In this document: in pieces, positions 1,381-30,621 of the stretch
Position numbering within the stretch: the first letter of the stretch is position 1
How the letters are laid out: each line of letters starts with the position of its first letter
Assembly: GCA_031835245.2 (NCBI GenBank)
Contig: JAVKOQ020000067.1
Location: 186,001-216,621 of the forward strand
Reading direction: 5' to 3'
Origin: Balamuthia mandrillaris
Taxonomy: Eukaryota
DNA: 30,621 nt
Program-made: the position numbers and the translations under genes
Notes under the pieces: model-generated
Database searches by the model: none
What the model was told of the DNA's origin: nothing
What the model saw: the letters and a program-made list of their open reading frames with translations, nothing else

Positions 1381-2351
1381 CTAGTTTTGTTCTGGTACGT
1401 ACGTGAACCCTTCAAACATGGGCGTGGACGTTGTCTCCTCATTATATACAGGAGGAACGTGGAATGACTCCATACAAATCATCCCCGACGGGCCGTCTTT
1501 AATAAGAGGCTTGAAAGGAGCGGGCATGGCCTTCGCTGTAAGCAACTGCCACGCCGCCTCATCCGCAAAGCCATGCTCCTTGAAAAAGGGGTGATTTCTC
1601 CAGTCGTCTATACTCCTTTTTGTGGGATCTTTGTTGACGAGCCGCTCCACCAGCTCGCGAAAACTTGATGGGATGCTTTGCTGGACAGTTAAAAAAAATT
1701 AGCAGTTTGATTTAATGCTCATAGTTGTGCTCTCTCCAGCTCACGTGTACAAACCTTGCAGCAGGTGGACTTGTCAGGCCATGAGACAGTGTTCATCATA
1801 ATTGCCTTATACATGGTTGCCACGTTTTCGCTATAAAAGGGTGGCAGCCCGAAAATCATCTCATAAGCCAAACAGCCTAACATCCACAAGCAATGAGGCA
1901 TGGCTGGTGGAAACTGACCAGATGCACCCGTCAACACCTCCGGTGGGAGGTACTCGGGAGAGGCTACAAAGCAGTGGGCGCTCCGGGTGGTGGTCAGATT
2001 CTGCCAACCGCCACTGCAATCTACTCTGAGGTAGCCATCACTATCCAACAAGATGTGCTCTGGCATCAATGAGGGTAGAAAAGGTTGGCCTGTCTGTTCT
2101 GCCCACTCCAAAACTAACCACACTTGTGCAAGATAAAAAGCCGTTCGATGGAAGCCGAATGTTTTATCCTGTTGTAGGCGATAGAACAGCTCTCCACCGT
2201 TCACATGTTCAAAAAGAGAAAAGGCGCTATACTTGGTTTGGTGGGTGTTACATAGTTCTAACACCTCACTGTTGTGTGATAAAAGAAAAGTTTAAAGGTT
2301 TGTTAATAACAGACTTGAGAAAGAAAAACACAAAAGAAGCAAAAGAAAGCA

Positions 2352-2403
<52 letters not shown>

Positions 2404-3035
2404 AATGGTAACCTGGGCAGCAGCCACGGGTGGATGACCCGAATAACTTGACTTGGGACGCAGCATTGCTTGCTCAGGCTAGAAATAGCCTGTTTGTAAG
2501 CAATTACCTCATCTAAAGAATAAAAGTGCCATCTTTTCATCACATAATAACCGTCTTCATTTGTTTTTCCTCGTCTTGCCTTCCTTTGGTCCTGCTTCCA
2601 TCGCACCAATTTGCTCGTATGGTTATTGCCCTTGTCTATAACGCGCAATTGTTCAAACTCTTCAACATTTGGGCACATTGCCTCTACAATGCAGAACACT
2701 CTCCAGCTATCATACAAATACGTAGACGAAGCTGAAGGTGAAGGTGGGAAGGAGGAGGAGGAGGAGGAAGTAGAAGAACAAGAGGAAGAAATCAAGGGTT
2801 CCATAAACTTGAAATAGGAAGGGGGGAAGAGAAACGAGGCAGCACGCCGCCACAAGAGGCGATCGCGAAGGGGGTGGTCAATGAAGTGTCGCCACGCGTA
2901 GCAGGTCAACCTTGCGGCACAAAGAGCAGAAGCATCCCTGGATACCTCTATCATGATTGCTTCTATCAGCTCACACGGCAGCCAACCAAATAGGCCACGT
3001 TGGAGCTCTTCCGCCACAGGGTCCTCTGCGGCCAT
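1381..3035 (-). CDS. F-box domain fused to an AGC-family (pseudo)kinase
   Basis: Exons are about 3035-2413, 2268-1755 and 1680-1381. The N-terminus has an F-box (LPCELIEAIMIEV..LCAARLTCYAWRHF). The kinase part has EHVNGGELFYRL, PEYLPPEVL and YEMIFGLPPFY, and ends in the AGC hydrophobic motif FEGFTYV. HRD and DFG are degenerate. Confidence 0.85.
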
Positions 3036-3232
3036 GGGTTGCCCGTTGGCGTAGTGTCTGCGCTCTTGCTTTTGTCTTTTCGCTTATCGATGCTGTTGCT
3101 TTCAGTAAAGACGAAAAATTATTTGGCGACCACCGTCGATCGGTTTGCCAAACTTGTCTGATTAATTGGCCCGGTCAAACCGAAGTTTGTGGTGTGTGTA
3201 AAAAATAGCGAGAGCCACGCGGGGGAGAAGCA

Positions 3233-5738
3233 ATGAGGCTTTGGGCTGGTTCTGTGGTTGCGCTATGTACGCTTGTGGTGGGACTTTTGGCGATGGGTCA
3301 CGATGCACGCCAACCGCTGGCTTCAGCTCCCTCAGGAGGTGACAGTTCGCTTTATCCGACCTCTCTGTCTTTCGGCAACGTCACCTTTCACTCTTCGTGC
3401 GGTTGTGCTGCCTCCGCTTCCTGCCTCCAATCACCCTTTGAGGCTCAAGTCAACTCCGCACTCGCTGCTCTTCACTCTTTTTGGTATCCGGAGGTACGTT
3501 GTGTGCTGGTTGTACCGTAGCTCATTTTTTTTGTTGGACTTGCTGTTTATATGGCTTTGTTACTTTTGCACAACTTCAGGCGCGGGCGCGGTTTGAACAT
3601 CTAACCGAACTTGCTCCAGACTGCACCATTGCATGGTGGGGTAAAGCCATGACTTTCTACACCCCGCTTTGGAGGTACGTCTCTGCTGCCGTATAGCACG
3701 TGTTATGTTGCTAGGCGTTACCCGACATCTGACAACAACGGCATGCCGTTCTCTTGATGTCCCGTCATTCCTAAAAGCCCTCCAGGTGCTAGAGATACAG
3801 AAGAAGCTTTGCAGGCGTTAGCGGAAGGAGAAAAAACTTTTAAGCTACCCAATGTGCGTGCCGTGGAACGGCGGCTGGTGGAAACGTTGGCAACGTTCTT
3901 CCGAGACAAGGCAAATCTTGCCAAGCGCGTACAAAACTATGCAACCAACATGGCGCAATTATGGCACGAGTTTTCTCAGGAGAAGGAAGTCATGGCCTTT
4001 TATGGTCTTTCATTACTGGCAAACGCCGAAGTGATGATTGAAGAACACTATGCCGGTCTTTCCCGCTCTCCTTCTCACTCTTCAGTCATTGTAGTGAAAG
4101 ACAGAGACGCTGCCACGAACGCCATTCAGAACTTGCCATGGTTCAAGGCTTTGAAGCGGGCAGGGAAGCTGTGTGAGCTGTTGCTATCAGATAATGCTGC
4201 CCATCCCGGAGGGCTTCACTACCTATTGCACAGCTATGATCTTCCGCAGTTAGCCTCCCTGGCACTTCCCTACGCTGAGGTTTACTCGGTAATTGCACCG
4301 AGAGTGCCTCATGCACTTCACATGCCTGCTCATATTTACCTTAGGTGCGCATCTTTTTTTCTTTATATGTATATTTGAATTTTCCTAACATCTCTTTATC
4401 GTTCTCTCTCCTATCACCAAAGGTTGGGTATGTGGGACAAAGCCATTCAGCAAGACACTAAGGCCATGATTGTCTCTGAAGATTTTATGAACGTATATTA
4501 CTCTGAGGCAAAGCATCTCTCCCGCCCAATGTATGACGAGTACCTTCACTCTTGCGACTATGCCATTTACGCCCACTTACAACAAGCCCAAGACCGTAAA
4601 GCGTTCGCCTTGGCTCAACAAGTAGCCACTATGACAGATTTACTTCCCGGTCTTACCATGGGGAGCATCTACAGCATCATTGCCAGCACATCCCGCTTTC
4701 TGCTCGAAACTCATCGGTGGGAAGAAGGGGCCAACTACCGGTTGACTCCACTTTTGTCTGGCGCGCTTCTCTCGTCAGACGGAACACCACTAGAGCCACC
4801 ACCTTTCGGCTATTGGCCCTTCATAATGGTTCATTACATTCGCTTGGTTTCTTTGGCCCACCTCCCTCAACCACCATTGGATAAAATGCGGGTTGAATAT
4901 GAAACTATGCTTCGTTATTATGCGGAACGAGAGTTTGTTTGGACAGGAGAAGACACTGCAGAGCTTGGTGTCCTTTGGGTATGATCTCTTGCCTCTCTCT
5001 CTCTCTCTCTCTCTCTCGGTTATTTTGCCCGCTTCTCTCCTTTACTGATGCTGTTTGCAGCGAATAGCAACACAAACACAGGTTGATGTGGCTAAGGCAT
5101 ACATCTTGGAGGCTGAGGGACATATTAATGAAGCTATCAAGATCTTGGCAGAAGCAGCGGATACGGAAGATGCTTTTCCCAAACCTAGCGTTAAACCTTC
5201 GGTACGTTTCAACCTAAGATTACCTTTGCTCGGTGATCTAACTGGTCTCAAACAGGTGGTATATCCGGCAAGAGAACAGCTCGCAGATATGTTGCTGAAA
5301 TACAAACGGTGTGAAGCTGCGCGGAACAACTACAAACTCTTGTTGGAGCTACAACCAAATCGCTACAACGCAATCTTTGGGATGGCTCAGGCTGCCGAGC
5401 AGTGCAATGAACCACAAACAGCGGTTCGACATTTTACAACGTTTACTACTCAGGTCAGAGGATGCGATCTGGACGCTATCCACGAGTTACGCTCTGGTTA
5501 TGTGGAAGATAGCTATCTTTTCTGCCGAGACGGTAGTAAAGACAGTCGGCCTCATCATCTGCAACAGGCACTCGACTTTCTTCACAAGGAGCTGCTTACA
5601 AGCCACGCACGGAGGCTGCATGTCGAGGGATTTGTAGTTTTGCAAATGTGGGCATTGCTGGGCATTTTGATATTGGCTGCATTAATGGGCTCTTTTGCCC
5701 CTAGCCCAGTGGCTGTACTCCGCAAGAAGCAGCAGTGA
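3233..5738 (+). CDS. Secreted or membrane-anchored TPR-repeat protein with conserved His motifs
   Basis: Five exons (3233-3493, 3580-3674, 3778-4344, 4423-4978, 5061-5738) join in frame through GT..AG introns. It has an N-terminal signal peptide, the motifs LHSFWYPEA, CTIAWWGKAM, HPGGLHYLLHSYD and PHALHMPAHIYLRLG, a TPR-like LQPNRYNAIFGMAQAA, and a C-terminal hydrophobic helix. Confidence 0.85.
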
Positions 5739-10085: not shown

Positions 10086-11125
10086 CATTACCTTTAATCC
10101 AAGTTCTCCAAACACGGTTGCAGTTGTGCTCCCCCTTCCTCCAAGGTTTCTTCCGGCAACTGGAGAACAACCTTCAGATTGTCAACCTGAATCCCAACTT
10201 GTGGAACATGGCCCTCGCGAAGTACACACAAGGGTCTAAGACCGCTTCCAGCTGGGTGCAGAACAACATAGTTATACCTCGCTTGCCATGGCATCAGGCC
10301 AGAGACGTCTACGCCACCCACTTCGGCAGCGCGGAACTTCAAACCCCTCTCCATGACGAACTCACTCCTTCATCTCTCCAGCAGCAGCGGAAAAATACCT
10401 CCACCCAGCATCCTGTGAACGCCATCACACCGTCATCTCCCACATCGACGACATGGAGATAGGCGACAGGTCCACCACTCGCGTTACCCGCCGTGCAGCA
10501 CACGTCCGCCTCGACTGTGGCTCCCGTAAGCTACATCACCACTTCTTCATCATGCCGCTTCAAGGTGAGCATGAGATCCTATTCGAAAGAGACATCATGC
10601 GACGCATTAGCGTTGGTCTTTTCGGCCTTCCTGTGCGTTATCCTCTCCCTAGCGAACGAGAAGAGTTCAAGGAAGACGACTCCAACATGTCTGACAAAGA
10701 TCAGTGTGTTGAGCTTCCTCCTCCTCCCGACACTGCTCGAAAAATTGCTGAAGGCATCCGCGACGCGCTCCAACGCAACCAGCAAGTGCCTCATGGCCCC
10801 AGCAGTTCCCTTCCTGAGAGTGTCATCTACCTCAACACCGGCGATGCCAAACCTGTTTTTCGTAAGCAGTACACCATTCCTCAAATGTATCACAACGCGG
10901 TTTTCAGGCAACTCACCGAGTGGCTCCGACACGGCGTCCTTGCGCTATCCTCACTCGACTGCCAGTGGAATTCTCCCATCCTTCCAGTCCCCAAAAAGGA
11001 TGAACACGGAAAATGGTCGAAAGTCAGGATCTGTATTGACCCTGGCGGCATTAACCCTCTCCTCGCTGACGACGAGTACCCGCTCGAGGACACCAAAGTC
11101 CTCATCGAACGAGCTCTAGGCCGCC
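10086..11125 (+). mobile_element. Truncated Ty3/Gypsy remnant (gag fragment, protease C-terminus, RT N-terminus)
   Basis: Gag-like SWVQNNIV..LPWHQARDVYATHFGS, protease-end HEILFERDIM, and RT start KPVFRKQYTIP..WNSPILPVPKK..KVRICIDPGGIN..DEYPL. It breaks off at about 11125. No LTRs seen. Confidence 0.85.
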
Positions 11126-11184
11126 TTTTATTTTATTTTTTATCTTAGAAAAAGGAAAAAAAGAGTTTTTTGTTCTTGTAACCT

Positions 11185-13629: not shown

Positions 13630-14539
13630 TCTTCTGACGTTGTGGTTCTCAACTAACCAACCAATGAACCTACAGGAAGGGAATCATTGATGAGAGCTCA
13701 AACCACCAGGAAAAGAGAGAGAGGAAAAGATGAAATGTTGACTTTCATGATGACATGAGAGCCATAATGACTAGTATCAGGACAGACGTGCAAGCAGGCT
13801 TGAAACCTGCTTACTTCTCTACTTGTTCTCTTGTTTCTTTTTTTTGGACCACCAATGAATTAACCAACCAACTAACCAGCTTAGGTTAGGGTTCTATGCT
13901 TGATTTTGACCTAAGAATCAGCTTTTAAAATATAATAACCTCTAAATGCTTAGAATGCATCAGAAGTTTTATATGGAATTTTTGCACGTAAAAATTGACT
14001 TAGTGAAATTTTTAAAATGCTGCTTTTCACACACAGCAAACACAGAAAGCAGGAAGACTATTGGAGGGTTTAGGGCAGCAGTTCATTCAACAGCTGCGTG
14101 TGCAAATGAAAGCAGGTCATGTAATAGGTATTTCCTGTAGCTGGCCATTAAGGGAACCAGCACAAGTATTTTGCCACTTTGGAGAAGGGGGGGAAGGAGT
14201 GGTGGTACGGTAATGAATTTGACAAATGTCTGGAGCAGAGAAAGCTATTCAAAAAAGTTTTTTCTACTACAACAAGTACAACAACAATAACAAGAGTGGT
14301 GTTTTCTCCATCAATCAGGAATCATTCCTTGGCCTTCCTCTATGACGTTTTTTTTGTCTCTTTGGCAACACAGGTAAAAGTTCTCAAGAATTTTTGTAAA
14401 AGTTTCAAAGGTTAGTGAAGGTTTCAACAGGAATTTTTACCATTCCTGAAATTTTTCCTTGGTGAAAAAAGAAGAGAGATAGGAAGTAACAGCTAGCTGA
14501 TGATGGTGGTCGCCCAGAAGGAAAGGGTTTAAAGTAAAT

Positions 14540-16619
14540 TTATTTTGTGATGGAAACATGTTTTTACTGTCATCTTTTCCTCCTTGCGAGGTGTCTGGGC
14601 TGTCTCTGAGAAACAACTGGCACGGCAGAAGTTGAGTTTGCTGTGGAAGTAGTTGTTGCAGCAACTTGGGGGGGAGAAGAAGCAGTGTGGGTAGCTTGAA
14701 GAAGAGGCAGAGAAAGAGGAGGAGATGGGTTGGTAGATGCTGAAGAATGAGAAGAAGCTTGAAAAGAAGAGGAAGAGGAGGAGATGAATGGGGAGACAGA
14801 AGGAGAGATAGAGTTGAAGACAGAAGAGGAGATGGAGATGGTGGAGGAAGTTTTCCTTGCCTACTGTGCTGGCTTAGGTGGTACAATTAGTTCCTCATTC
14901 TGGTACCAAGGGTTGGGCTGCTGTGTCCTCTTGCTTCCTAGTGGAGCCGGGTGAAAGTGATTACTTACATCTCCTTTCCATGGTGATAGTGGGCTCATGC
15001 CATAATGGCCTTGCATCTTCTTTTTTACATAGGTTGTAGAGGCAGGGCTAGTGGACGGCTTGTGCTTACATGCAGCTTTGTTGCTGATGAGTGGTTTTGC
15101 CTTGTTGTTCTTTCTGGGAGCCTTGACACCTGTTGCTGGAGGGACTTTCTTTTTGCCAGTTGTGGTTTTGGGCTTGCAGTTGTGTGGTTTGGCTGACGGA
15201 GGTTGCTTTGGTCAGCTGTTTTCCAAATTTGCAGAAATAGCTTTGCTGAGCTCTTGCTGCTTGGAGGGTTTCTTCTTCTGTCCAGTTGGGAGCGCAAAAT
15301 GTTTCTCTGTGTTTCTTGGTCTACCTTGAGAAACTCTACAAGAGTTCCATTCCTCATCTAGTCACCTTTCCTCTTTATTGGAAAAGTTCAGCATAGGTTG
15401 TTTTATTACTTGACTCCATTCAGGATCCTCCTTTTCACTATCATCCACCTCAGCTTCACCATCATGAGCCTTCTCCTCCTCCTTTGCCTCCTCCTCTGCC
15501 TCCTCCTTTTCCTTCTTCTCCTCCTCCTTTTCCTCTTCTTCCTCCTCCTCTTTCTCCTCATCTTTATCTGCGTCTGCTGCTTTTGCCTCATCTGTGTGAT
15601 GATGATCATCATCAGTGCCCTCCTCCTTGTCATCATTGCTGGTGGTGTTCTCATAGACATGGCTACTGTCATCACTGGAAGTGTTGGTAGGGTTAGAATT
15701 ACTGTCATTGCTGGGATTGCTTTCAACTGTGGGAATGTGAACAGAAGCAGGATGTGGATGGTCAAAAGGACAGCTTTCTGGTGGGAACTCCCTTTAAAAG
15801 TGGTAGCTCAAAAATGTGCTTACACCATTTGCCAGTGCAACAGTAGAAGTTGCAGCTACAGTGCCAAGGGTCAAAACACACATAGTATTCACCAAAGGAG
15901 AAGTGACAGTTGGTTATCAGAGAGAAGTAGCCTTCCTGCACCAGTTTCCAGCCCTTTGCCTGCCTTATCCAGAGTGTGTGGATACTCCTGGAAGGTCTAG
16001 GTTTCTTTTTGGCTGCCAATCTCTGCTGAAACGCCAGATCATGCGATGCAAGGGTCCTTTCTTCCAAGGTAACCAGCATAGTTTCTGGTGCTTTGGCCTT
16101 TTTTTGATGAAAGTCCAGCTGCATTACCTTCTTTCAAAACAACAAAGTATTGTCTTTGTAATGCAAGGTTTTTTGCCTCTATTGTTTTTAAACATGAAAC
16201 TCACACAAAAGAAAAGAAAAACCTGCATCCACTGCAGCCTTTCAGATTGTCCTATCCTTGTCCATCATTATAATGGAGTGGTTTATGCAGTTGCTGCTGC
16301 ATGCAAAAGTATCCCTCTTGGAGGCTACACTGAGGCAAAGCTACAAAGGGGAACATAGTATCTCAATACAACACTTGTTGCAGTCTCTCTTGGTGGCCTA
16401 ACGGCTGCTCCCCTTGTTAACCTCACTGCTTCCTCCTTTCATATATGATGATGTCCTGGATCTTGGAGACAGATGGCAGCAGTTCTTTTGGGATGGCAGC
16501 AGGCAAGCTAAACATTGCCCTAGCTTTCAACTGGCACCTTGCAGAGGATGCAGTGATTAGGCCTTCTGCACTGGTTTCCAATCCATCCTGTGAAAGAATC
16601 TCCTTCTTAAGAAAAGCAG
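14540..16619 (-). pseudogene. Mutator-like (MULE) transposase with SWIM zinc finger, decayed, continuing at 21320-21362 beyond the LTR element
   Basis: IIMMDKDRTI*KAAVDA (about 16275-16225), intron, then VMQLDFHQKKA at the MULE D...(C)xxH position. SWIM finger YYVCFDPWHCSCNFYCCTGKWCKHIF at about 15890-15810, followed by a long acidic then basic/Ser-rich tail with stops. Confidence 0.65.
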
Positions 16620-16752
16620 TGTTATACCACTCCCCCATAATACCTATCCCTCCTTGTATATATATCCCTTTCTTTCATGTTATTAAAGGTCTTTTTCCCT
16701 ATGCCCATTGAGTTGGTGTCAGTTAGGTTGTTCCCCTACCGGCCTTATCATA
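16620..16752 (+). repeat. 5' LTR (133 bp)
   Basis: TGTTATA...TATCATA. It matches 21181-21319 with about 9 substitutions and one 6-bp indel by manual alignment, and contains TATATATA and ATTAAA. Confidence 0.95.
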
Positions 16753-16946
16753 CTTGGCAACATCCTGCCCCTACCCATCCTAAACTTGCGGATAAAGATG
16801 ATGGTCCTGGCTCTGGGTCCAGCTCTTTGTTGTTGAGTGAAGAGGAGGAAGAAAAGGAAAAGGAGAAGAGAGAACCTGCACTCAACCTTACAGCACACCA
16901 TCAAGATTTATGATGACATATTGCCAAACATAGCACTGGTGACAGC

Positions 16947-19900
16947 TTGGGTGATATTCGGCTGATGCAGAGTCTGCTTACCACAGAAATGCTGCTGACT
17001 TTCCATGGCAAGCCAAATGAGGACCCAAACATCTTTTTGACCTTGTTTGACTGCTATGCAACTGCTGCTGGCTGGAGTCATCAGGACTATATCCTTCACT
17101 TTGAAGGACAACTTCATGACAACACTGATGTTGTTTACCACTTTCTCAAGCAAGAATGAATGAAAGGTGGAGTCCTACTAACCCCCACGGAGGTGAAAAC
17201 ACAGCTCCTCAACTGCTTCCAGCATCATGACCGAGTGACTGCTAAGATCATGAAGCTTGGTAACCTCTGAATGAATGTTGATGAGTCTGTAGACACCTGG
17301 AACTTGCAAGTGCATACAGCACTGTGAGAGGCTTTCCTCACAGATTTCAGCGAGACTCAGGTCTTGGAGAAGTTCATCACAGGCACTGTTCCAGACCTGA
17401 AGGAGAAATTCCTTCAGCAGGAAGACATCGCTAATATGGCTGATGCCCTGAACCTTGCTAGAGACTGGGAAGGACGCAAACATGCAAAAAGGAGCTTGGA
17501 CCATTGGTCAAAGAGCTCAAGGCAGGAGAAGAAGGACACTTTTGGCAGTGCTTTGCAGGACACAAAGGGCAAGTCTGGAAGCCAAAGCCAGGTGCTGGCC
17601 AGAAGGACAGTGCTGGTGGAAGGACAGGATTGATGAATATTGTCATCAAGAATGCGTGTTGTCTGCCGAGGATGACATTGAAGATCTCTGGAGGACAGTT
17701 GAGGCCATGCTGGACTCCTGTGCCACTGATAGCTTTGTTCAAGAAACACTTCTACCCAAAGAAGTAAGAATGAGTAGCCTATATAATGGAGATATGTGGA
17801 GAAGTGCCACTGGCCATGAAGTGAAGCCGAAGGGTTATGTCACTCTTTGTTTTTGGATGCCTACTCATGAGAATGTCAAGGTAACTGTTGCTGTCTTGGC
17901 AGAGGATGATCCGATGCCTCATGATTTTCTCATTGGCTGGGACATTTTGGAAGCACGATGACACTGGTTGCTTCTCACTGAGAGCAAACCTGTGGAAGGT
18001 TTGTCTTGCAACTCTGATGATAACCAAGTGTGCACCTCAGTCACAAAGGAGACCCAAGACATTGTGGATGTTATCTACCTGGTGGAGCTTCCCACTGAGG
18101 AAGAGGTAATGACAGGCCTGAAAAAGCTTGTGAACAACATGGACCTGGATATCGAGCAGAAAGCACGGCTTCTAGAGCTGGCCCTTGAATTCAAGGACAT
18201 CTTCTGCTACAAGCTTCCTGAGCCAGGAAGTGTTAAACTTCCACCCCACAAGATAGTCCTAATAGATTATACCCCCATCCGTGTGAAGCCTCACAAGGTC
18301 AGCACCAAGGTTCAGGAGACCATCGACACTGCCATGGATGACATGCTACTCATGGGCATCATTCACAAATCTGTCAGCAAATGGGCACTCCCAGTAATCA
18401 TCATCATCAAGAAGGACAGAAAACCAAGTTTCTGTATTGATTACAGAGAGCTAAACAAACAGACAGTGAAGGACTCTTATCCTATGCAAAACATTGAGGA
18501 TGGACTGAATTGCCTCCATGGCTCCAAGTTCTGGTCCAAGTTTGACCTAGCATGTGGTTATTGGCACTTCCTAATGGAGGAGTGTACTGCAAATATGTGT
18601 GCCTTCATTACTAAAATCCGGCCAGTTTGAGCCTGTGGTTATGCCCTTTGGACCTACCAATGCTCTGGCTATGTTCCAATGAGGAATGGACGAGATCTTT
18701 GGCGAATTCAAGTGGAAGTTTTCTTGGTGTCACATTGATGACCTCATTGTTTTTTCCAAGACATTTGAGGACCACCTTGTTCACTTATGCAAGGTCTTTG
18801 AGTGTCTCCATGAGTATCAACTCTACATGAAAGTCAACAAATGCACCTTTGTAAAGGAGATGATGGAGTACCTTGGACACATGGTGTCTAGTGACAGAAT
18901 TAGTCCCATGCAGAGCAAGGTCAAGGTGGTGCAAGATTGCCCTCGCCCTACCACCAGGAAGCAACTACAAAGCTTCCTTGGACTTGCAAACTACTATCAC
19001 AAGTTCATCCATCATCTTGCCAAGATGGTGAAGCCCCTCACTGACCTCATGAGCCCCAAAACAAAGTTCGTGTGAAGCAACGAGCAGGAACAGGCTTTCC
19101 AAGGGATAAAGGAGGCTCTTATCAGTTCTCCTGTCCTTGCCTATCCTGATGCTGAAAAAGACTTTCGGATCTGCTGTGATGCCAGCAATTATGCCATCAG
19201 AGGAACTTTGGAGCAGAAAGGAGAGCCCACATTGTAGCCTACAGTAGCAAGAAGCTTTCCAGTCTGCAGCTCAACTGGAGCGCTACAGAAAAGGAGGCTT
19301 ACACCATTGTCTTCTTCTTGTAGCATTGGAGATATTACTATTCTTCAGCAGCTAGAATGTGTTGTTACAGACCACTTGGTGCTGCAATGGCTGTTCTCCC
19401 AGAAAAACCCTTCTGGCAAGTTGGTGAGGTGGATTGCCAAGCTGCAGGAATTCGGCCACATCCAAGTTACCCACTGACCAGGGAAAGAACATTCAAATGC
19501 CAATAGTCTCAGCTGTGAACCATTCGCTCTTGGTGCAGTCAACACTGTTACTTGTCCAAAGAACCATAAACAGGTTACTTTTGCAGATGGAGGGGAAGGC
19601 AGCCAGTCAGATGATGAAGACAACCGTGGGATACAGTCACAAGAGAATGGCTCCCTGCAGGTTTTACCGGATATGGAGTTGGATCCCAACTCATGGCTTG
19701 AGCTGCTGTGTATCAACAATGAATTTTCATGGATTGTTGAAGCCATTGAAGGCAATGAGGAGGCATATCAACATAAGACACCCCGTCAGTTGGTGCTTAT
19801 GGAGCAGTGCTTCCTCCAAGATGGATATCATTTATGCATGATTTGGCCTGATAAAGCCAAGGTCAAACAAGCTACTGTCCAACAAATCATGCCCAAGGAG

Positions 19901-21130
19901 CTTAAGAACAAGATACTTCATCAGTTTCATGATGTTCCTACGAGTGGGCATTTCGGCCTTACAAAGATGTACTCCCGCCTCATCATGTAGTACTGGTGGC
20001 CTAGTATTCACAAAAATGTGGAACATTGGGTCAAGGGCTGTGTGGAATGCCAGGAGGCGAAGGCTCTGTGGAAGAAAGCTGATGAGCCATTGGGTCACAT
20101 CATTGCAAATGAGCCAGGTGAGTTGGTCTGCATGGACCTGATTGGTGAGTTGCCCTTGATGGCTGAAAAGTACTGATATGCCTTGGTCACCATTGACGCC
20201 TTTATGTGTTGGCTGAACATTCGTCCATTGAAGATGAAACAAGCAAAGGAAATGGCGAAGGCCTTACTTGAGATCTTCACAAGCACAGACCTCTTGAAGG
20301 AGCTTCTGTCTGATCAAGGAAGAGAGTTTGTTAACAAACTCAACAATGAGCTTTTGACTCTTCTGGGCATCAAGTGTAAATATGCCATGGCAGAGCATCT
20401 CCAAGGAAATGGCATGATTGAATAATACAACTGCACCCTTAAGGAGCAGCTCTGCAAATTCATGGATGGCAGGCAACAAGCCTGGAGTGCGTACCTTCCA
20501 ATGCTACTTTATTCTTATCACCATGCGCTGCTGCCAGGACGACGATTTACCCCTTATGAGCTAATGTTTGGAAGGAAGTCCAAAGGTACTGGTTTGGTGG
20601 ACACTACTCATCTGTCCGACAATTTGTGGGTGAGGCAACTGCAGGAGACACAGCATGAACTTGCAGAAGAAGCCTGTGGAGTAGACAACATTCAAAAGAA
20701 GAAGATGAAGAAACGGCATGGCAAGCCGAAGGATGAGTTTAAGGTTGGCAACCTGGTTCTCATTCACTCCAAAGCCACATCAGTAGGTGAGTCAAGGAAA
20801 CTTCAACATAGTTGGAAAGGAGGACCTTACAAGATTATTGAAATTTGTTCTCCACAGACAATCAAGGTGCAGAATACTGCTGGTCCTGAAACAGTTAAAG
20901 TGGTAAACCTCAACTGCATCAAACAATTCATCCCACGTAACGACAAAGATAGAGAGCTTGCTGATGATGAATATGAGGTTGAGAAAGTTTTAGATCACTG
21001 CTACACCAGTCAAGGACTTGAATATAGGTTGAAGTGGAAAGGTTTCTCCAACCACAACTCTTGGGAGCCTGAATGTAATGTTATCAACGCCCCAGACCTG
21101 GTCCAGGCATATTGGAGAGCGGTATCATGA
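16947..21130 (+). pseudogene. gag-pol polyprotein with many stops and frameshifts
   Basis: Gag FHGKPNEDPNIFL; protease MLDSCATDSF; RT FCIDYRELN, KFDLACGYWH and CHIDDLIVFS; RNase H CDASNYAI; integrase HDVPTSGHFG..CVECQ, LSDQGREF and WKGGPYKI; chromodomain YEVEKVLDH..EYRLKWKGF..NSWEPE. The start is approximate. Confidence 0.93.
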
Positions 21131-21180
21131 TTATCAGCCTGACAGTCAATCACAGATGACTTTGGCCTGGGAGGGGGAAG

Positions 21181-21319
21181 TGTTATACCACTCTCCCATA
21201 ATACCTATCCCTATCTCTCCTTGTATATATATCTCTTTCTTTCATTTTATTAAAGGTCTTTTTCCCTACGCCCATCAAGTTGGTGTCCGTTAGGTTGTTC
21301 CCCTACCAGCCTTATCACA
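21181..21319 (+). repeat. 3' LTR (139 bp)
   Basis: TGTTATA...TATCACA, directly after the polypurine tract and directly before the GCAG duplication. Confidence 0.95.
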
Positions 21320-21506
21320 GCAGGAACAGGCAACACATCATGGTAGAGGATGAAACATTCTCTAAGGGTTAGGGGCGGGTACTCAGAACCTACGGCATTC
21401 AACTCCCCATGGTCCATTCTATAAAACTCTAAGTCTATAAGTCTAACGGATAAAGTGGGTCAAAGTAGCAATTTTTTCAATTTTTGTATAGGAATGACTA
21501 TATAAT

Positions 21507-22690
21507 CTAACAAGATATAATCATAATATCATCATCATCATCATCATCATTCTCCTCTGTCTCTTCCTCTTCATCCAAGATGGATATAACTGTAGTGGTA
21601 GTAGAAGTAGGAGATGATGATGGGGAGGAAGTGTTGTCATTATCATCATCATCCGATTTGTCAAAGTCCTCATCGTGGGCCACCAAGTATTTGGCCTTCA
21701 AAGCGTCCAGATTGTTGGAGAATTCTGTGAGGAGATTGCGCCATTTATCATAGCAATCATTGTTGGTTCGATGTTGGGTAGGCAAGTGTTTGGCAATCTC
21801 CAACCAAGACCATTCATCACGCAAGCGCCAAGTGACAAGTCTACGGATTTCTGGTGCCTGCCAAGTGATTCGTTGCTGATGGCCATTCTTCTGATATTTG
21901 AGTCGACTGGATAACAATTGTTGTTGCTGAAGTGCTCTGCGAAGTCGTTGTCGTCGTGGTGTTTGTTTTTTTGAGTCAGGACTCTTGTCATCATCATCAT
22001 CAAGAGAAGCAAGGAAGGAGGATGATGGCTCTTGACGAGGGGTGAGGAATGCTTTGTGAATGGGTGATCCGTTGACCAACTTGGGAAGTATAAGAGCTAC
22101 AAACTCATCCACCAGCTCATTCAAGCCACTGAAAAAGCTTTGTAGAATGCCAGAGATGTGTTGACAGCACAGCTGGCGATGAATATTGGGCCAACGAAGA
22201 GGAGATTTGTTTTTGGCCTCATAGGTGGCTGCAGCTTCAGCTAGCACATCCTTATCAAACTCATCTGGATGATTTTCTACCCAAGCAGTACAACATTCAA
22301 GCCATAAGGAGCGATAAAATCGTATTTGTTGATCTTTGGTTGGCAAATCTGTTCGTTTCATGAACCACCTAAAGAAGCAGTGTAAACGAAGAAAGAGAAA
22401 GCGAGAAAGAAAGAAAGAACAAGAGAAAGAGAAAGAGAAAGAGAAAGCGAGAGAAAGAAAAAGGGAAAGAAAGAAAAAGGGAAAAGAGACAAAAAACAAA
22501 GTGTGAGTGAATGTCAAAAGAAGAACAAATGAACCAAGACCAATCATAACAATTATTGTTTAGACTATGAATGTTGCTGCTGCCACAATAAACCTGTGCG
22601 TTCTAGCTGAGCGCTAGGTCTAAGGGTGCATTTTTGAATGCAAGCAAGCAAGCAAACAAACAAGCCATGACTGACTGGATAGATAAATAA

Positions 22691-22746
<56 letters not shown>

Positions 22747-23731
22747 TGGTGATGGTGGTGGATACTATGCAAACAAAACAAACAAACAACACACAAACAA
22801 ACCGTTGGCGAACAGCATGAATAAAACTCTGATAGTTGGTATCTGCAGACCAGTTGGATTGTTGCAAAGCATCTGGGGATAGATTGTGAAATGCTTCTTT
22901 GGTAACTAGCTCTGGAGCAATAACTGTATGCATGCAAGGAAGTGAGGATGAAAAGAACCAAAAAGAGAGCAAGTCAGTCCATCAAGTGGTAGTGGTGATG
23001 GTGGTGGTGATGGTGGTAGTGGTTTATTGACGCTGGTCAGGCAGCCAGCCCAGCCAAAGAAAAAACAAAAGAAAAAACAAAAATCAGATGAGCAGTAATG
23101 AACCGCAATGTCAAGGAGGATGATAATCAGCAGTGGTAGTTGTAACAGAGGATGAAGAAGAAGAAGAAGAAGAAGAAGAAGAAGAAGAATGAGGATGAGT
23201 GGTGGTAACATTGCTGACCAAGTGATTGGCCATAATAGCACGTTTTAATGTATCCTTGATGTAGACTTGCTGGGATCTACCACGAGGTACCCAACCTGCG
23301 ATAAGGGCAGTAGTATCCAGTACATTGTTCTGACTGTGACCTTCCTGCAGTCCCTCCAAGATCAAGGCAGTGCAAAGGAAGCCAGCACGCAAGGAGTGAA
23401 AGGAAAACAATCCTTCAGGATAACCAGCCTGAACAGCCCGATCTTGCAACTTGGCATTTAAAGTATCGCGTGACCATCCCCATAATGATGTTTGTTTTTG
23501 TGCATCTGTTAAGCACCAGTTGTGAAACTCGCGCAAATCCAAACCATGCTTGCATAACAGATGCTTGTTTAACCAGTAAATAAAATCTCCAAGACAAATG
23601 CTTGGTGTTGATGTTGTTGATGTGGCGGTGGCGGTGGTGGCAGCAGCAGCAGCAGAGGTCGTAGCAGTGACGATGCTAAGTGGTGATGATGATGATGATG
23701 GTGATGGTGAAGAAGATGATCCTCGTGATGA

Positions 23732-23765
<34 letters not shown>

Positions 23766-25815
23766 GGTGTTAAATAACCTTCAAATGTAACGACATGATT
23801 CCAATGATTTGGTATTCCTTTGGTGACTTGTTGGCGCAACGAAAGGAAATAAAGAGGAGGAGCAGAAAATGCATCCTCTTGGTGATGGCAGCTGAGGTTG
23901 CCATTGTTGTTGTTGTTGTTGTTGGAAGAGGAGGATGAAAGTTTAGGTCGAAATGCCACAATATCACCCAAATGAATGTTTGCAGCTGTAATGGCTCTGG
24001 CACCAGTACAAACACTGTGTAACCAACAACTGGCTTCACCAGCTTTGCTCACCAGTCCATCTGGAGTGGATGCGATGATATGTAAGACATCATCTAACAA
24101 ACATGCGTCTTTGCACAATTGTTTGCTAGAACAGGAGGGTTTGGCTCTTTTGCAATGCTGAATGGCCTGTTTGACTTGATCTTTGATGGCATCCATTTGG
24201 TTTTTTAGCAACAACAAGTAAGCATGGTCTGAGGTTGCCGTCAATGCTGTAGTGCGTCCTGTCGCTCCTGTTGTGGCTACTCGAGTGACACCATCACCAA
24301 GAATGGTTCTGGATAAAGGAGAAGGAGGAGGAGAAGTGGTAGGTGATGATGATGCTGGAGACAAAGAGATCATGGAGGAAACAGAGGAGGAGGAGGAGGA
24401 GGAGGAGGAAGAGGAGAAGGAGGAGGATGCAGAAAGGGAGTCAAGCTGTTGTTGGATACTTTCATCATGCAAATGATAAAGACTGGCAATCATGACATCA
24501 CACACAGAGCTCAAGGCATAACCCACATCCAAAATCAACCATTGAACAAAGGCTCCTACATTATGATGTTGGAGATTCAAAGGAAGAGCTGGCAAACATT
24601 TATGATGCGCACAATGTGCTTCCCAGATGGTCAAAGTCCAGGCATGTTTATGTTGGGTAGAAGGGCTTCATCGACTCATCACTGTCGTCAACTCTGTCCA
24701 TTGCTCTTCTGTCAAATGGTTCATCAATGTGATAGCACGAGAAAGACGTCTTCCTGCACCATCACCACCACCATTACTACTACTGCTGTCATGTGTAGTA
24801 TCATCATCAGTATCATCCTTTGTTCTAGCTCTATTTTGTTGTTTCTCTATTTTTCTCTTTTTTCCTTGTTTTTCTTCTTTTTGTTCTTCTTCATCTTCTT
24901 CTTCGTCTTCAGTTAACAACAACAAATCTATCAATGTTGGTGGAGTTGTTGTTTTGCTTGTTGCATCTATATCTGTTTCTACTCCTCCTCTTCTTCCTCT
25001 TAATGAGGATGATGATGATGATGATGATGATGATAAATTACTGTCATCACCGCTATCCATAACATCACCATCATTGTTCTCAAAGACAAAGGACTCTGAA
25101 TTTGAAGAAGAAGAAGAAGAAGAAAAAGCAGAAGAAGAAGAAAAAGAAGAAAAAGAAAAAGAAGAAGAAGAAGAAGAAGAAGAAGAACACAAAGAAGAAG
25201 AAGAAGAAGAAGAAGATGAAGAAGATGAAGAAGAAGAAGAAAAAGGAGGAGAAGAAGGGAGAAAAGAAGAAGAAGAAGGAGGAGGAGAAGAAGGAGAACA
25301 AGAAGAAGAAGAAGAAGAAGAAAAAGCAGAAGAAGAAGAAAAAGAAGAAGAAGAAGAGGTCGTCCTTTCTAATGATTGTTGTTGTAGTTGTTGTTGTTGT
25401 TGTAGTTGTTGTGGTTGTGATTGAGTAAATGATGAAGTGGGAGTAATGGTGGTAGTAGTGGATGAAAAGGGTGATGCAGAAAATGGAGGAGGTGAAAAGA
25501 GCTCTGCAGGATTATCAACAACAATAACAGGAGCAGAAGCAACAACAGTAGCTGGTGGTGGTGTTTTTAACAAATAATGATCCAAAAACTGCTTGCGAAC
25601 AAATGACTGAGTGTTGAGAGCCTGATAGGGAGCAAAGTGATGATTGAAAGATGTTGCTGATGAGGATGAGGATGATGATATTGAGACAATCGTTACTTCA
25701 TCATCCTCTTCTGTTGCTGCTGCTGTTGCTATTGCTACCTCTTTGTTGTTGTTGTTGTTGTTGTTATTTAGTGATGATGGTTGGTCAAAGACAGCAGGAA
25801 TAGATATATTATCTT
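21507..25815 (-). pseudogene. Tyrosine recombinase with C-terminal telobox-like Myb domain (copy 1), in-frame TGA at 24670-24668
   Basis: Catalytic set R (TGARAI), K (VTKG), HxxR (FSFHSLRAGF), W (IAGW) and Y (QQVYIK). Later exons are 22923-22803 and 22368-21507. Myb domain TWQAPEIRRL..WLEIAKHL..RTNNDCYDKWRNL at about 21866-21729. The 5' end and the splice donor near 23110 are unresolved. Confidence 0.88.
22679..22746. repeat. (GATA)n microsatellite in an intron of YR copy 1
   Basis: Directly visible tandem repeat. Confidence 0.95.
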
Positions 25816-26006
25816 CTGTTTGTTGTTGTTGTTAAACAAGCAAATTGTAGACACAAACACAAACACAAACAACAAATGTTGGAAACAAAAGAAACAAGAA
25901 GTTAGTAGGTCTAGTCTGGATGAATGAAGATATAGATAATAATAAATAATGAGAACTATTTGGAGACTTGTTTTTGTTTTTCCTCTCCTTTCCATTCTTT
26001 ATCATT

Positions 26007-26042
<36 letters not shown>

Positions 26043-26442
26043 TTTTTCTTTCTTTCTTTCTTTTTTTCTTTCTTTCTTTCCTTTTTACATCTGGCAGTAG
26101 CAGGAGGTTCATTTTTATAATTGCCTTTTCATTCTTTGTTTGTTTACATTTCTTGTTGTCTTTCTATTAGTATTATTATTTGCAACAATACTACTGTTTT
26201 TGCTTGTTTGTCATGTCACTCACTCCCTTATTCACCATGCTATGCTTAACAACTCTTACCATCACCATCACTGCCACCACCACCATCACTGTTCTACCAT
26301 CCATCCATCTATCCATCCATCCATCCATCCATCCATCCATTGTTTAACCAGTATTATTACCACCGATCAACCAACCAATCAACTAACTCAAGCTTTCTCT
26401 CAAACAACCAAACTAATATAACGAAAAAGAGGAAGAGATCAC

Positions 26443-26857
26443 CTGCCTGAGTTATGGTGTTGTGAACGAGTTGTGGCTCCTTTTCTGCTGCTACTGCTAG
26501 ATGAGGCAGCCACGGCAGCAGCAGCTCTTTGCAAAGATGATTTGGCAGCAGCAGTAGCAATAGCCTTTTGAGCAGCAGCTGCAGCCTTGCGCGTAGATTT
26601 GCTGCTAGGGCTCTTAGTAGCACTTGTGTTTTCCTCTTCTTTCTGTTTTTCTGCTTCTTTTTCACCAGCTTCTGCTTCTGCTGCTTTTGGTTCTTCTTTT
26701 TCTTTTTCTTCTTTTTTTTCTTTTTCTTTTTTTTCTTCTTCTTCTTCTTCTTCTTCTTTTTGTTCTTGTTCTTCCTGCTCCTCCTCCTCCTCTTCTTCAT
26801 TTTGTGCTGCTGCTGCTGCTGCTTGTTTCTCTGGGCCATTAGCAGGTTTTTTTGATA
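26443..26857 (-). other. Orphan exon encoding an Ala/Glu/Lys-rich low-complexity segment
   Basis: Flanked by a polypyrimidine-TAG acceptor (26860-26858) and a GTGATC donor (26442). Open frame SKKPANGPEKQAAAAAQNEEEE..STRKAAAAAQKAIA..HNSG. Confidence 0.45.
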
Positions 26858-26969
26858 CTAGAACAACAACAACAACAACAAAAATCAGTAAGGCTTGAAT
26901 GAGAAATCACAAAGGCATAACAGTGCAAACAAACTTCAAAAAGATAGCGCTCCGCTGGAGCGCTATAGG

Positions 26970-26987
26970 TTAGGGTTAGGGTTAGGG
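26970..26987 (+). repeat. Interstitial telomere-type repeat (TTAGGG)3
   Basis: Three perfect TTAGGG units preceded by TAGG. Confidence 0.9.
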
Positions 26988-27259
26988 GCGAGTACTCTTA
27001 AACCTAAGCTAGCCTCTCCTTGTAACTTAAAGAAATATCATAAAAAACTAAGTCTAAAATAGATACACTTATATTGTGATGAAATTTTTTTTAATCTTTT
27101 CTAAAGTTGTAAATATCAATAAAAAGGCAGTTTTGTTAAAATATTTTTATAATACTAAGAAAAAAATGTTGAAGATAAAGAAATAACAACAACATAAAAA
27201 AAAACTTAATATCATAAAAACATTTCAACATGAAAATAGAAAATAAAAAACAAACAAAA

Positions 27260-29957
27260 TCAAATATTAAAATGTTGACAAATAGCTTTTTCACTACCAT
27301 ACTTAAGCATTAAGTTTCTCCATTTGTCTTTGCAGTCCACATTTGTCCTGAGTTGCTGAGGTAAAGTTGATGCAATCTCAACCCAAGTAGCTTTTTTATG
27401 AAGACGCAAATGAATCAACTCTTTTGTTTCTTCATCACTCCAAGGTTGATGTTGACGATGATTGGAAGTTTTGATGCGAGTTCTTGGAGTAGAAGTTTGA
27501 AGTTGAAAGGGTCCATTTTTTCATTTTTTGTAAGGTACTTGCTTCAAAGGTGAATGGTTTTGTAGATGAGGTAATGCAGGTTCTATGAATGCTTCCAAAA
27601 GCTCATCTAAAAGTTGAAAGTTGCCTGCCAACAAGCTTGCAATATGTCTTCTTCCAACAATCGTTTTGATGTGATTAAGTGGTGGTGATGCATCTTGAGA
27701 GTTATTTCTTTGCTTGAATGCTTCCATTTCCTGGCTCATCTCTTCTTCAACTTCATCTTCATGATTGTCTATCCATGCATGTAAGCACTTTTGCCATAAA
27801 GACTTGCATAATTTAGCATGATCTGACTTGGATAAATCAGTTCTGCTTTGGAATCTAAAATAAATAAAAATTAATGAATAAAATGAGTGAGTTAAGCACA
27901 AGAAAAATAAACAAAATAAACAAAATAATAATAATAATAAAGTAAAAAATACACCAACCTTTCCATAACTTTGTCATAAAAGGCTTCATAATTAGTTTGT
28001 AAAGACCACTTTGAAGTCAAAGGTTCTTTCAAATTATGAAATACTTCTTTGGTAACTAAAGTTGGATCCATCAAACTGGTTGAAGAGGCTTCACCTAATT
28101 GATTGTATGTGCAAAAGAAAATAAAAAGTAAGATAAGTTTTTCTTTCTTTCTCAAATTAAAAAAAAAAGAAAAAATAAAATACCTGAGGAAGAAACTAAT
28201 CTATTAGCAACCATGGATTTGATAGCAGTGCTTTTCACATAACGTTGTTGAGAACGTCCATAAGGCTGCCAACCAGCAATAAAAGCTGTAGATTCCAGTA
28301 CTGCATTTCTTTGTTGACTGTCATTCAAACCCTGCTTGATCAAAGCAGTGCAAATGAAACCAGCTCTCAAAGAATGGAAAGTAAAGAGGCCTGGAGGATA
28401 GTTGGCTTGGCTAGCACATTTCTTCAGTCTGGCATTCAAAGCATCAGGGCTCAGTCCCCACAAAGAAGTAGCTTGTTGTTGAGGAGAAAGATTCCAAGCA
28501 GAAAACTCTTCTAAGCATAAAGAATGAGTTTCTTGAAGATGAAGATTAAGCCAGTAGATGAAGTCAGCTGTGGGGTTGATGTGAGGAGGAGGATGAAGGT
28601 AGCCTTCCAAAGTAATCATGTGATTCCAATCTCCTGGTTTTCCTTTGGTAACTTGATGAAGAAGTGAAAAGAAGCAGAGACTGTGAGGATCAGAGGGATC
28701 TTGGATGATGAAGTTCTGAAAATGTCCAAGAAGAATGTTGGAAGCTGTGATGGCTCTAGCTCCAGTGCTTACACTATGCAACCAACAACTGGCATCTCTT
28801 GCTTTTTTGCGTTTACCATCCGGAATCATCGTTATGATTTGAATCACATCATCCCTCAAACAAGCATCTCTCATTCTTCCTGATCTTGTACAAGATGGAG
28901 CACGTTGTTTGCACTTCTTTGCTGCCAAATTCACAGTATCTTGTATCTTTTGTGGTACTTGCTCTCCTCCTGTTTCTTCCATATGAATATGATACAAACT
29001 TGCCACAATAACATCTTTTGCTGAAGTCAAAGCATATCCAACAGTCATCACCAACCATTCCACAAATGCTCCAAGATGATGTTTATCTGCATCCAAAGGA
29101 AAAGGTTCAAGTTTCCACTTATCACAAAATGCTGTCCAAATCAATCTGGCCCAGGCATGTTTTCGCAAAGTTGAATCACTCCATCATGAAGAAGTTGCAC
29201 TCAAGTATTCCCATCTTTCTAACATTAAAGAAGGAAGCATACGAATAGCTCGAGACACTCTTGCTGATGGGGTAGTGGTTGGTAATGCTTGTGATGATTG
29301 TTGTTGTGGTTGTACTTTCTCTTTTCTTTTTGTTTTTGTTGGTTCATTTTCTGCTTCACTTTCTGAAGAAGAAGAAGAAGAAGAAGAAGAACAATCTACC
29401 AAATCAATGAAAAGAGTAGAAGTTGTTGTTGGAGTTGTTGAAGTTGTAGTCAAGTCTATTAAAGAAGAAGAAAAAGAAGAAGAAGAAGAAGAAGAAAAAT
29501 AAAAATCATCATTATTGGTCTCTCTTTCCTTCTCTTTTTCTTCTTCATCTGATGTTGCAAAAAAACTATCATTATCTTCTTCAAAATTAAAAGCATCATT
29601 GTCATCATAAAAAATGGGAATGAATGAAGAAGAAGAAGAAGAAGAAGAAGAAGAAGAAGAAAAAAAAGAAGAAGATGATGATGATGATGATTTCAAGGTG
29701 GAAGTTGAAGTTGTAGAAGAAGTAGATGCAGATGATATTATCATTTTTTGTTTTTGTTGAGTGTGAAAGGATCTTTGAAGCAAGATAAAAATGAATAAGA
29801 AATAATAATTCAAAAAAAATTACTTTTAAAATAAATAAACAAACCTTTTACATTTTTTGCTACAAAAAAGTTGATTTGATTGAGGACAAGGAATCAAATT
29901 CAAACAAAGTGAACAATGTACTTTTTTTGAAGTTGAAGGTAGCATTGTTGTTGACAT
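27260..29957 (-). pseudogene. FCS-type zinc finger + tyrosine recombinase + telobox-like Myb (copy 2), with two in-frame TGA codons
   Basis: Exons 29957-29845, 29772-28184, 28094-27959 and 27854-27260 splice in frame. Motifs are CSLC..FCSKKCKRSFH; TGARAI, VTKG, FTFHSLRAGF, IAGW and QQRYVK; and PWSDEETKEL..WVEIASTL..RTNVDCKDKWRNL (27445-27311, absent from the ORF track). TGA codons at 29186-29184 and 27523-27521. Confidence 0.9.
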
Positions 29958-30294
29958 AAAATATTGGTAGAAAATAAAAAAAAAATTCACTTAAAAAGAC
30001 TTTGTAAAAGAAAAAACACAATTAAAAAAATAAGAGGGGAAAAACAAGTGGAAAAAGTGTGAACTGTTTGTGAAAAAATAAAAAAATAAACTTTAATTGT
30101 AAAAAAAATGTTTGAGGAGTTAAATTTTGGATTTTTGTAGACATGTCGACAGAAAATAACCGAAAAACCATAATAGAAAGGCGCTATCGAAGGATGACTA
30201 TTTAAAAGGGCGAAAAAAACATTATATTTTTCGAAAGCTCCAGGGAAAAGAAGGGGAGATTAACCTAGGTCGTTCAATTGATTGATTGGCTTAC

Positions 30295-30385
30295 GTTGTT
30301 ACATATGAACCAATAATTGAAAGCATTTAGTACTGGTGAAAGAACAATGCTGGAAATTGTTGGGACAGGGGCACTGCCTTGCCAT
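30295..30385 (-). pseudogene. Possible first exon with a C2H2-like zinc finger and a premature stop
   Basis: MARQCPCPNNFQHCSFTSTKCFQLLVHM*Q followed by a strong GTAAGC donor at 30294. The frame choice is uncertain. Confidence 0.3.
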
Positions 30386-30621
30386 ATCTTTCCGTTAAGA
30401 CAAAATGGCTGCATGGGCCCACCCGCTTCTCATTCCTGCATTCACTTGAAGAAGGAAATATCCGTTGAAATATTGCATTGAGATTGGGTTCCTTTGGAAA
30501 GGTTTGTTTGGTATAGAGAAGAGTAGTCACTTAGAAGGACAACCTGACTCTGGAGTGATTTTTTTTTGAAATTTTTTTTAAATATAGCAATTTTATCCAA
30601 GTTAAAAAAAAAAACAAATGA

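What the first reader, a model, noticed from the sequence alone, without database searches (positions are those of the whole stretch)
21363..21437. About 75-90 bp terminus conserved between two otherwise diverged YR elements
Copy 1 reads GGGTTAGGGGCGGGTACTCAG-AACCTA (21366-21392) ... ATAAAACTCTAAGTCTA (21421-21437). Copy 2 reads GGGTTAGGGGCGAGTACTCTTAAACCTA (26979-27006) ... ATAAAAAACTAAGTCTA (27040-27056). I see no similarity in the other non-coding DNA of the two copies, so this block looks selected. It contains a central palindrome (GAGTACTC in copy 2) flanked by inverted TAGGTT/AACCTA arms, resembling a YR attachment site with inverted binding half-sites.
Basis: partly seen in the sequence, partly recalled or inferred. 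Interest (0 to 1): 0.72.

Follow-up and report, generated by a model that had tools for sequence, protein, structure and literature searches.

The report
Telomere-tipped recombinase transposons of protists
The conserved block is the end of a many-copy jumping gene in an amoeba, made of a few copies of the host's telomere repeat plus a fixed-spacing motif that recurs in related elements of other protists, and it is likely the site that the element's own DNA-cutting enzyme grips in order to move.

Summary
The block is the terminus of a multicopy DNA transposon encoding a Cre-like tyrosine recombinase (YR) fused to a Myb domain (best hits Balamuthia mandrillaris). In four sequencing runs depth jumps at 26965/26966 and other copies have unrelated, non-telomeric flanks. 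The same motif at the same spacing sits at a telomere-type tract beside YR-Myb relatives in 25 of 41 metagenome loci: TTAGGG in three loci, TTGGGG in 22 from a ciliate-code host, where 3.2-kb elements form mixed head-to-tail arrays. The local YR's Myb helix carries the telobox consensus. Best model (inferred): a Crypton-like element whose YR-Myb binds telomere-type repeats at its end and recombines at or in the tract. The other end, circles and binding are unproven; some relatives lack the motif. Ten literature searches found no description of the family; Repbase could not be searched. Three look-ups found no earlier scan note on it.

The parts
21365..21393 (+). Element 1 terminus: TAAGGG-TTAGGG then N5-TAC-N4-AACCT; downstream end of the YR-Myb gene of element 1
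21420..21440 (+). Second conserved island of copy 1 (ATAAAACTCTAAGTCTA); role unknown, possible accessory site
   Evidence: 17/21, z 5.9
26966..27007 (+). Element 2 terminus: TAGG + (TTAGGG)3 + GCGAG-TAC-TCTTA-AACCT; multicopy boundary at 26965/26966
27039..27059 (+). Second conserved island of copy 2
13882..13915 (+). Third, diverged copy of the end (TAGGTTAGGG-TTCTA-TGC ... ACCTAAG) at the left edge of the transposon cluster; no YR gene directly behind it
21507..26839 (-). Element 1 YR-Myb gene, several exons (5' extent inferred); catalytic R 23996-24007, K 23816-23824, HxxR 23387-23401, W 23291-23299, Y 23261-23269; Myb helix RTNNDCYDKWR 21738-21770
27260..29813 (-). Element 2 YR-Myb gene, several exons; catalytic R 28755-28766, K 28641-28649, HxxR 28365-28379, W 28269-28277, Y 28239-28247; in-frame TGA at 27521-27523 ahead of the Myb domain (RTNVDCKDKWR 27317-27349)
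26885..26965 (.). Upstream region of element 1, itself multicopy, ending in a 9-10 bp hairpin (26944-26966); cut off by the end of element 2 (other copies continue with a different sequence)
30261..30270 (+). Candidate other end of element 2 (TAACCTAGGT: inverted to TAGGTTA, direct repeat TAGGT); unproven
   Evidence: against:
16620..21319 (+). Decayed Ty3/gypsy chromovirus-type LTR retrotransposon with GCAG target duplication, left neighbour of element 1; not part of the terminus
15762..16619 (-). Broken SWIM-finger, MULE-like transposase remnant between copy 3 and copy 1
   Evidence: CxxH signature

Best explanation
The block is the end of a multicopy DNA transposon that encodes a Cre-like tyrosine recombinase fused to a Myb domain, built from two to three host-type telomere repeats and a fixed-spacing motif, and it likely serves as the recombinase's binding and recombination end. 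Inferred steps: the Myb domain, whose third helix has the telobox consensus in element 2, likely reads the GGGTTA/GGGTTG half-sites, and the YR core likely sits on the GTT-N9-WAC dyad. The element would then excise as a circle and integrate by a crossover at or within the tract. In the amoeba the crossover lies at the tract's outer edge, usually at TAGG, so the tract travels with the element into ordinary DNA, including a host exon. In the TTGGGG host, insertion next to an existing end would build the mixed tandem arrays.
For: Boundary: depth rises at 26966 in 4 of 4 runs; 6 of the 15 loose ends shown lie before 26962-26972, none telomeric, 5 joining just before TAGG. NCBI models P0024 and P0025 read through the end (..APNPNP..); P0024 continues into a Ras-like host exon, so the tract came with the element. 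17 near-identical proteins in one cluster plus further subfamilies. Cre is the top fold hit (E 1.7e-5). R, K, H, R, Y invariant in every representative that covers them (137/137, 139/139, 136/136, 137/137, 127/127; W 128/129). GTTRGKR-N5-WAC: 35 matches in 27 of 42 sequences vs mean 2.4 (max 5) in shuffles; long form with AACCY 11 vs 0. Tract matches the host telomere where testable: Balamuthia TTAGGG; L002/L003 host has a 118-bp TTAGGG array at a contig end. VxxKDxxR telobox consensus met by element 2, P0007, P0008, P0009. No RT in the 3.2-kb units.
Against: The other end was not established: the sequence that follows element 1's upstream region in other copies is absent from the window, so the TAGGT direct repeat at 30266 is unproven and no empty site was seen. 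No circle was shown (L001 has a 3412-bp period, tandem or circular). Whole-domain scores do not separate telobox from c-Myb (TRF1 26.7 bits vs c-Myb R3 28.7). Only 16 of 86 representatives covering the helix have VxxKDxxR (27 have KDxxR); element 1 and the ciliate-code proteins deviate. L004/L005 have long flanks on both sides but no motif; L007 has a tract with shifted spacing; L010 a single repeat. The tract is downstream of the gene here and in L007 but upstream in L001, L003, L031 and the TTGGGG group. Copy 3 has no YR beside it. Reads like human DNA are dropped by the tool, so copies inside long telomere arrays could be hidden.
Confidence: 0.66

Rival explanations
1. Telomere-repeat targeting: the tract is the target, not part of the element; the YR crosses over just after the last TT(A/G), and the element inserts into telomeric or interstitial telomeric repeats, as TATE and nimaviruses do.
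For: In the TTGGGG host the tract length varies from 2 to 7 repeats among copies of one subfamily, and element-specific bases start 2-3 nt after the last TTG; mixed arrays; L026 ends tract-ATCC-tract; L002 and L004 elements lie 1.2 and 7.7 kb from long TTAGGG arrays.
Against: In the amoeba the multicopy boundary is outside the tract, with unrelated flanks, and one copy puts the tract directly against a host exon. First-in-array TTGGGG copies have AT-rich, non-telomeric DNA beyond the short tract. It may still hold for the ciliate-code lineage.
Confidence: 0.17
2. The tract recruits host telomere-binding proteins or acts as a regulatory signal; the element's Myb binds something else and the true att core is only the few outer bases.
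For: The tract follows the host repeat type even where the element's Myb helix departs from the telobox; element 2's subfamily stops before its Myb.
Against: The non-telomeric WAC at fixed spacing and the inverted AACCY arm are shared across distant hosts, which points to an element-encoded reader.
Confidence: 0.1
3. Telomerase added the repeats at a break or on a linear intermediate (Tel-1/healing type).
For: Exact host repeat; variable length in the TTGGGG host.
Against: The G strand reads inward, opposite to repeats added to a linear element's ends (same argument in PMC13085455); fixed three repeats and one junction across many amoeba copies; variant repeats (TAAGGG, TTAGAG, TTGGGA, TTGGTG) track subfamilies.
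Confidence: 0.05
4. Chance similarity of low-complexity DNA.
For: The window is rich in simple repeats; the islands are short.
Against: 0 of 300 and 0 of 100 shuffles; boundary in four runs; motif in distant hosts.
Confidence: 0.01

Closest known systems
Crypton DNA transposons (CryptonF/S/A/I; CryptonV targets microsatellites)
   Same: YR as sole enzyme, no RT, no long TIRs; a short TAGG core recalls the 4-6 bp terminal direct repeats (CryptonS TATGG) (PMC3212892).
   Different: C-terminal Myb instead of GCR1_C or DUF3504 (no such Pfam hit); telomere-type tract and spaced motif at one end; hosts are an amoebozoan, oxymonads and a ciliate-code protist. No Crypton reference sequence was on hand for a tree.
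TATE of Leishmania (YR retrotransposon)
   Same: YR element in tandem clusters tied to telomeric hexamers (PMC6681497).
   Different: TATE has gag-like and RT/RH ORFs and split direct repeats and inserts into the repeats; these elements lack RT, and in the amoeba the tract moves with the element.
Telomere-inserting nimavirus YRs
   Same: YR linked to telomere motifs; concatemers bridged by repeat tracts (PMC10871703).
   Different: Those are 280-400 kb viruses with arm-binding and C2H2 domains; no relative of this YR was found in viral contigs.
TBE1, Tel-1 and Paramecium Helitrons
   Same: Ciliate mobile elements with telomeric repeats at their ends (PMC13085455).
   Different: TBE1 uses a DDE transposase, Helitrons a HUH nuclease; Tel-1 repeats were proposed to be telomerase-added. 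Tel-1's end sequence could not be compared (paper not read).
TRF1/TRF2 telobox Myb domain
   Same: Single C-terminal Myb with VxxKDxxR in element 2 and close relatives.
   Different: Fused to a recombinase, no TRFH domain; the consensus holds in a minority of the family.

Membership tests
Tyrosine recombinase | Catalytic R-K-HxxR-H/W-Y | tested here: met
Tyrosine recombinase | Cre/XerD fold with core-binding and catalytic domains | tested here: met
   (Cre, E 1.7e-5, TM 0.61 by target)
Crypton | YR without reverse transcriptase | tested here: met
   3.2-kb units hold one YR-Myb ORF; no RT family in the 3' frames scanned
Crypton | Dispersed multicopy with sharp ends | tested here: met
   (one end only)
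Crypton | 4-6 bp direct repeats at both termini | tested here: inconclusive
   TAGG(T) at 26966 and 30266 (chance 0.002 for TAACCTAGG in 792 bp, post hoc), but the expected flank is missing
Crypton | YR falls within a named group (F, S, A, I, V); GCR1_C or DUF3504 domain | tested here: inconclusive
   No GCR1_C or DUF3504 hit in 16 members; no reference Cryptons available for a tree; nearest Atlas cluster is oomycete (lead only)
Crypton | Circular excision intermediate | not testable with these tools
   L001 is periodic but tandem and circle cannot be told apart
DIRS/Ngaro/VIPER/TATE | RT/RNase H and gag-like ORFs | tested here: not met
   the RT in the window belongs to a separate LTR element
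Tec/TBE-type (DDE + YR) | DDE transposase and long TIRs in the same element | tested here: not met
   No DDE ORF in the complete TTGGGG units; the MULE-like remnant lies outside elements 1 and 2
Telobox Myb | VxxKDxxR in helix 3 | tested here: inconclusive
   Met in element 2, P0007-P0010; not in element 1 or ciliate-code members; 16 of 86 overall
Telobox Myb | Specific binding to double-stranded telomeric DNA | not testable with these tools
   needs a binding assay

The most novel reading that the evidence does not exclude
An undescribed, widespread protist superfamily of YR-Myb DNA transposons that use a telomere-reading Myb domain and ends that co-evolve with the host's telomere repeat (TTAGGG in amoebae and others, TTGGGG in a ciliate-code host): a eukaryotic site-specific recombinase addressed by telomeric DNA, able to build telomere-repeat-linked arrays and to seed interstitial telomeric sequences.
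Probability: 0.4. Interest if true: 0.85.

Novelty: new variant of a known kind. Interest (0 to 1): 0.72.

Why it matters
Crypton ends are hard to define and their mechanism is largely modelled by analogy; here a conserved end is visible across distant protists and gives a concrete substrate to test. An element end that switches with the host telomere repeat would be a clear case of transposon-telomere co-evolution and a new source of interstitial telomeric repeats. A recombinase with a telomere-reading domain could also be useful for targeted integration. The family is large (297 clusters at 50% identity with E up to 1e-30) yet annotated only as hypothetical proteins.

Tried and rejected
No whole genome was held, so the genome-wide blastn and logo could not be made. 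Pfam and PDB sequence searches did not recognise the window YRs; only 4 of 16 family members hit Phage_integrase. No relatives in viral contigs (32 pattern matches, 0 confirmed) or prokaryote genomes (14, 0 confirmed); the TTAGGG form of the motif had 0 matches in viral contigs. My first long pattern was too strict (1 of 41 loci) and was corrected. A structured-DNA role for the block: no excess folding (z 1.26, -0.22, 0.23); only the hairpin left of copy 2 folds (z -4.1), and it belongs to element 1. Head-to-tail abutment of elements 1 and 2: rejected, since element 1's upstream region continues differently in other copies. Resemblance of the second island to the 3' end of the TTGGGG elements (ATAAAACT..CTAAATAG): noticed, not tested. 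The tree groups the 7 ciliate-code proteins and the 2 Balamuthia proteins but leaves deep nodes open; no donor or order of events is claimed. L038-L041 are weak, GC-rich matches (E 2e-4 to 9e-4); they are kept in the n of 41. Three look-ups of earlier scan notes gave nothing relevant.

Full report
Observation. The quoted strings are at the stated places. They form two islands, 25/30 and 17/21 identical, each beyond all 300 shuffles; the spacer between them and both 80-bp flanks are at chance. A third, weaker copy lies at 13882. TAGGTT and the GAGTACTC palindrome occur only in copy 2.

Setting. No genome was held. The window is eukaryotic; the best hits of the YR exon are Balamuthia mandrillaris proteins, up to 93% identical over the full query, so the host is inferred to be that amoeba. 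Left to right: host-like genes, copy 3, a broken SWIM/MULE-like gene (the MULE label rests on a CxxH signature named in PMC8869645 and on my recall of the motif), a decayed chromodomain LTR element with a GCAG duplication, copy 1, YR gene 1 (minus strand), copy 2, YR gene 2 (minus strand). Each block lies just downstream of its gene.

The protein. Both genes encode R-K-HxxR-W-Y and a C-terminal Myb; gene 2 has an in-frame stop before its Myb. The model's best fold match is Cre. One cluster holds 17 near-identical B. mandrillaris proteins. A profile finds 297 clusters at E up to 1e-30; among the best 150 the catalytic residues are invariant wherever covered, apart from one W. Named relatives are from Monocercomonoides and Blattamonas. 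None was found in viral contigs or prokaryote genomes.

The boundary. Contigs of four DNA runs laid on 26885-27145 show a depth step at 26965/26966 in all four (8.8 to 423, 193 to 1102, 344 to 2614, 0.9 to 24.6 between adjacent bins). Of 23 loose ends, 15 were shown; six lie before 26962-26972, all non-telomeric and different, five joining just ahead of TAGG. The tool drops human-like records, so copies inside long telomere arrays could be missed. Two NCBI gene models read through the end: P0025 (..RVLAPNPNPK) and P0024 (..RVPAPNPNPNF, then a Ras-like host exon). So in this host the three repeats move with the element, the outer TAG is common but not universal, and the palindrome is not required. 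The DNA left of copy 2 is itself multicopy and continues otherwise in two runs, so element 2's end cuts into element 1's upstream region. That continuation is not in the window, which leaves the candidate other end at 30261-30270 unproven.

What the block is. TTAGGG is the Balamuthia telomere repeat (bioRxiv 10.1101/2025.02.25.640156, passages). Of 41 metagenome loci, 25 have a telomere-type tract followed by GTTRGKR-N5-WAC: L001, L003, L031 with TTAGGG, and 22 of 24 loci with TTGGGG, whose ORFs open only with TAA/TAG read as Gln in the 15 loci checked. The two exceptions in that group begin inside the element. Matches total 35 in 27 of 42 sequences (two of them, L007:876 and window 9410, away from any tract) against 2.4 in shuffles; the long form ending in AACCY occurs 11 times against 0. 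These are about five independent hosts, not 27. The TTGGGG host is inferred to be a ciliate; its telomeres were not seen (C4A2 is the Tetrahymena repeat, PMC5182062 passage). There the 3.2-kb elements form head-to-tail arrays of mixed subfamilies with 2-7 repeats at each junction. Against generality: L004/L005 lack the motif despite long flanks, L007 has shifted spacing, L010 one repeat, L006, L032-L034 and L037 show none but are cut short, and gene orientation relative to the tract differs among hosts.

The Myb domain. The telobox consensus is VxxKDxxR (PMC6175992, passages). Element 2 and its close relatives meet it (VDCKDKWR), and 12 of 19 PDB hits of P0009 are telomere-binding proteins, but profile scores do not separate TRF from c-Myb repeats, and only 16 of 86 representatives meet it. 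Telomere binding is thus a prediction.

Mechanism. Shown: a sharp, selected end, an intact recombinase family, an element-borne tract in the amoeba, and a motif shared across hosts. Inferred: YR-Myb binds tract and dyad, excises a circle and integrates with crossover at or in the tract. The main rival, insertion into telomeric repeats, fits the TTGGGG arrays but not the amoeba; both may hold in different lineages. Telomerase addition is unlikely from strand polarity and fixed length.

Comparison. It works like a Crypton (PMC3212892, parts 1-2 of 7; PMC13465315, part 1 of 9), but membership in a named group is untested. TATE (PMC6681497, passages), nimavirus YRs (PMC10871703, passages), Paramecium Helitrons, TBE1 and Tel-1 (PMC13085455, passages), composite DDE-YR ciliate elements (PMC5405496, passages) and CryptonV (PMC8869645 and PMC5753468, passages) are precedents for parts of it. 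Ten searches (listings and abstract starts) showed no YR-Myb element with telomere-type ends. Repbase, subscription journals and supplements were not seen and could hold it.

Verdict. Real, and more interesting than first read: a new variant of YR DNA transposon with telomere-type ends. Interest 0.72.

Noticed in passing
window 13882-13960: A third copy of the end sits ahead of a SWIM/MULE-like gene rather than a YR; it may be a cargo-carrying or non-autonomous derivative, or a separate remnant.
   Followed up: partly
window 26944-26966: Perfect 9-10 bp hairpin (z -4.1) in element 1's upstream region, ending exactly where element 2 begins; may be an insertion hot spot or a promoter element.
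   Followed up: partly
window 16620-21319: Decayed chromodomain Ty3/gypsy element with 139-bp LTRs (90% alike), GCAG duplication and a tRNA-like primer site.
   Followed up: partly
window 27521-27523: In-frame stop before the Myb domain; five NCBI proteins 97-100% identical end at or near the same place, so a Myb-less subfamily appears to have spread.
   Followed up: partly
window 30146-30480: Degenerate plus-strand reading frames upstream of YR gene 2, possibly a second gene; no Pfam hit.
   Followed up: partly
L001 1-3567: Contig with a 3412-bp period holding one YR-Myb gene and one end motif: a circle or a tandem array.
   Followed up: partly
L026 3202-3244: Contig ends tract-ATCC-tract, which could be a junction into telomeric repeats, a healed break or an assembly artefact.
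   Followed up: no
L008-L030, about 1800-3250 of each unit: The 1.4-kb 3' non-coding region is 75-98% alike among subfamilies whose YR genes are only 63-74% alike, suggesting exchange within arrays.
   Followed up: no
L007 3599-3671: tRNA-Met gene 250 bp outside the element end.
   Followed up: no
proteins P0024, P0031, P0007, P0032: Public gene models fuse this transposon to host genes (Rap GAP, DEAD-box helicase) or to a second subfamily, indicating insertions into genes and nested copies.
   Followed up: partly
window 10453-11148: A second retroelement-like fragment (protease to RT start).
   Followed up: no
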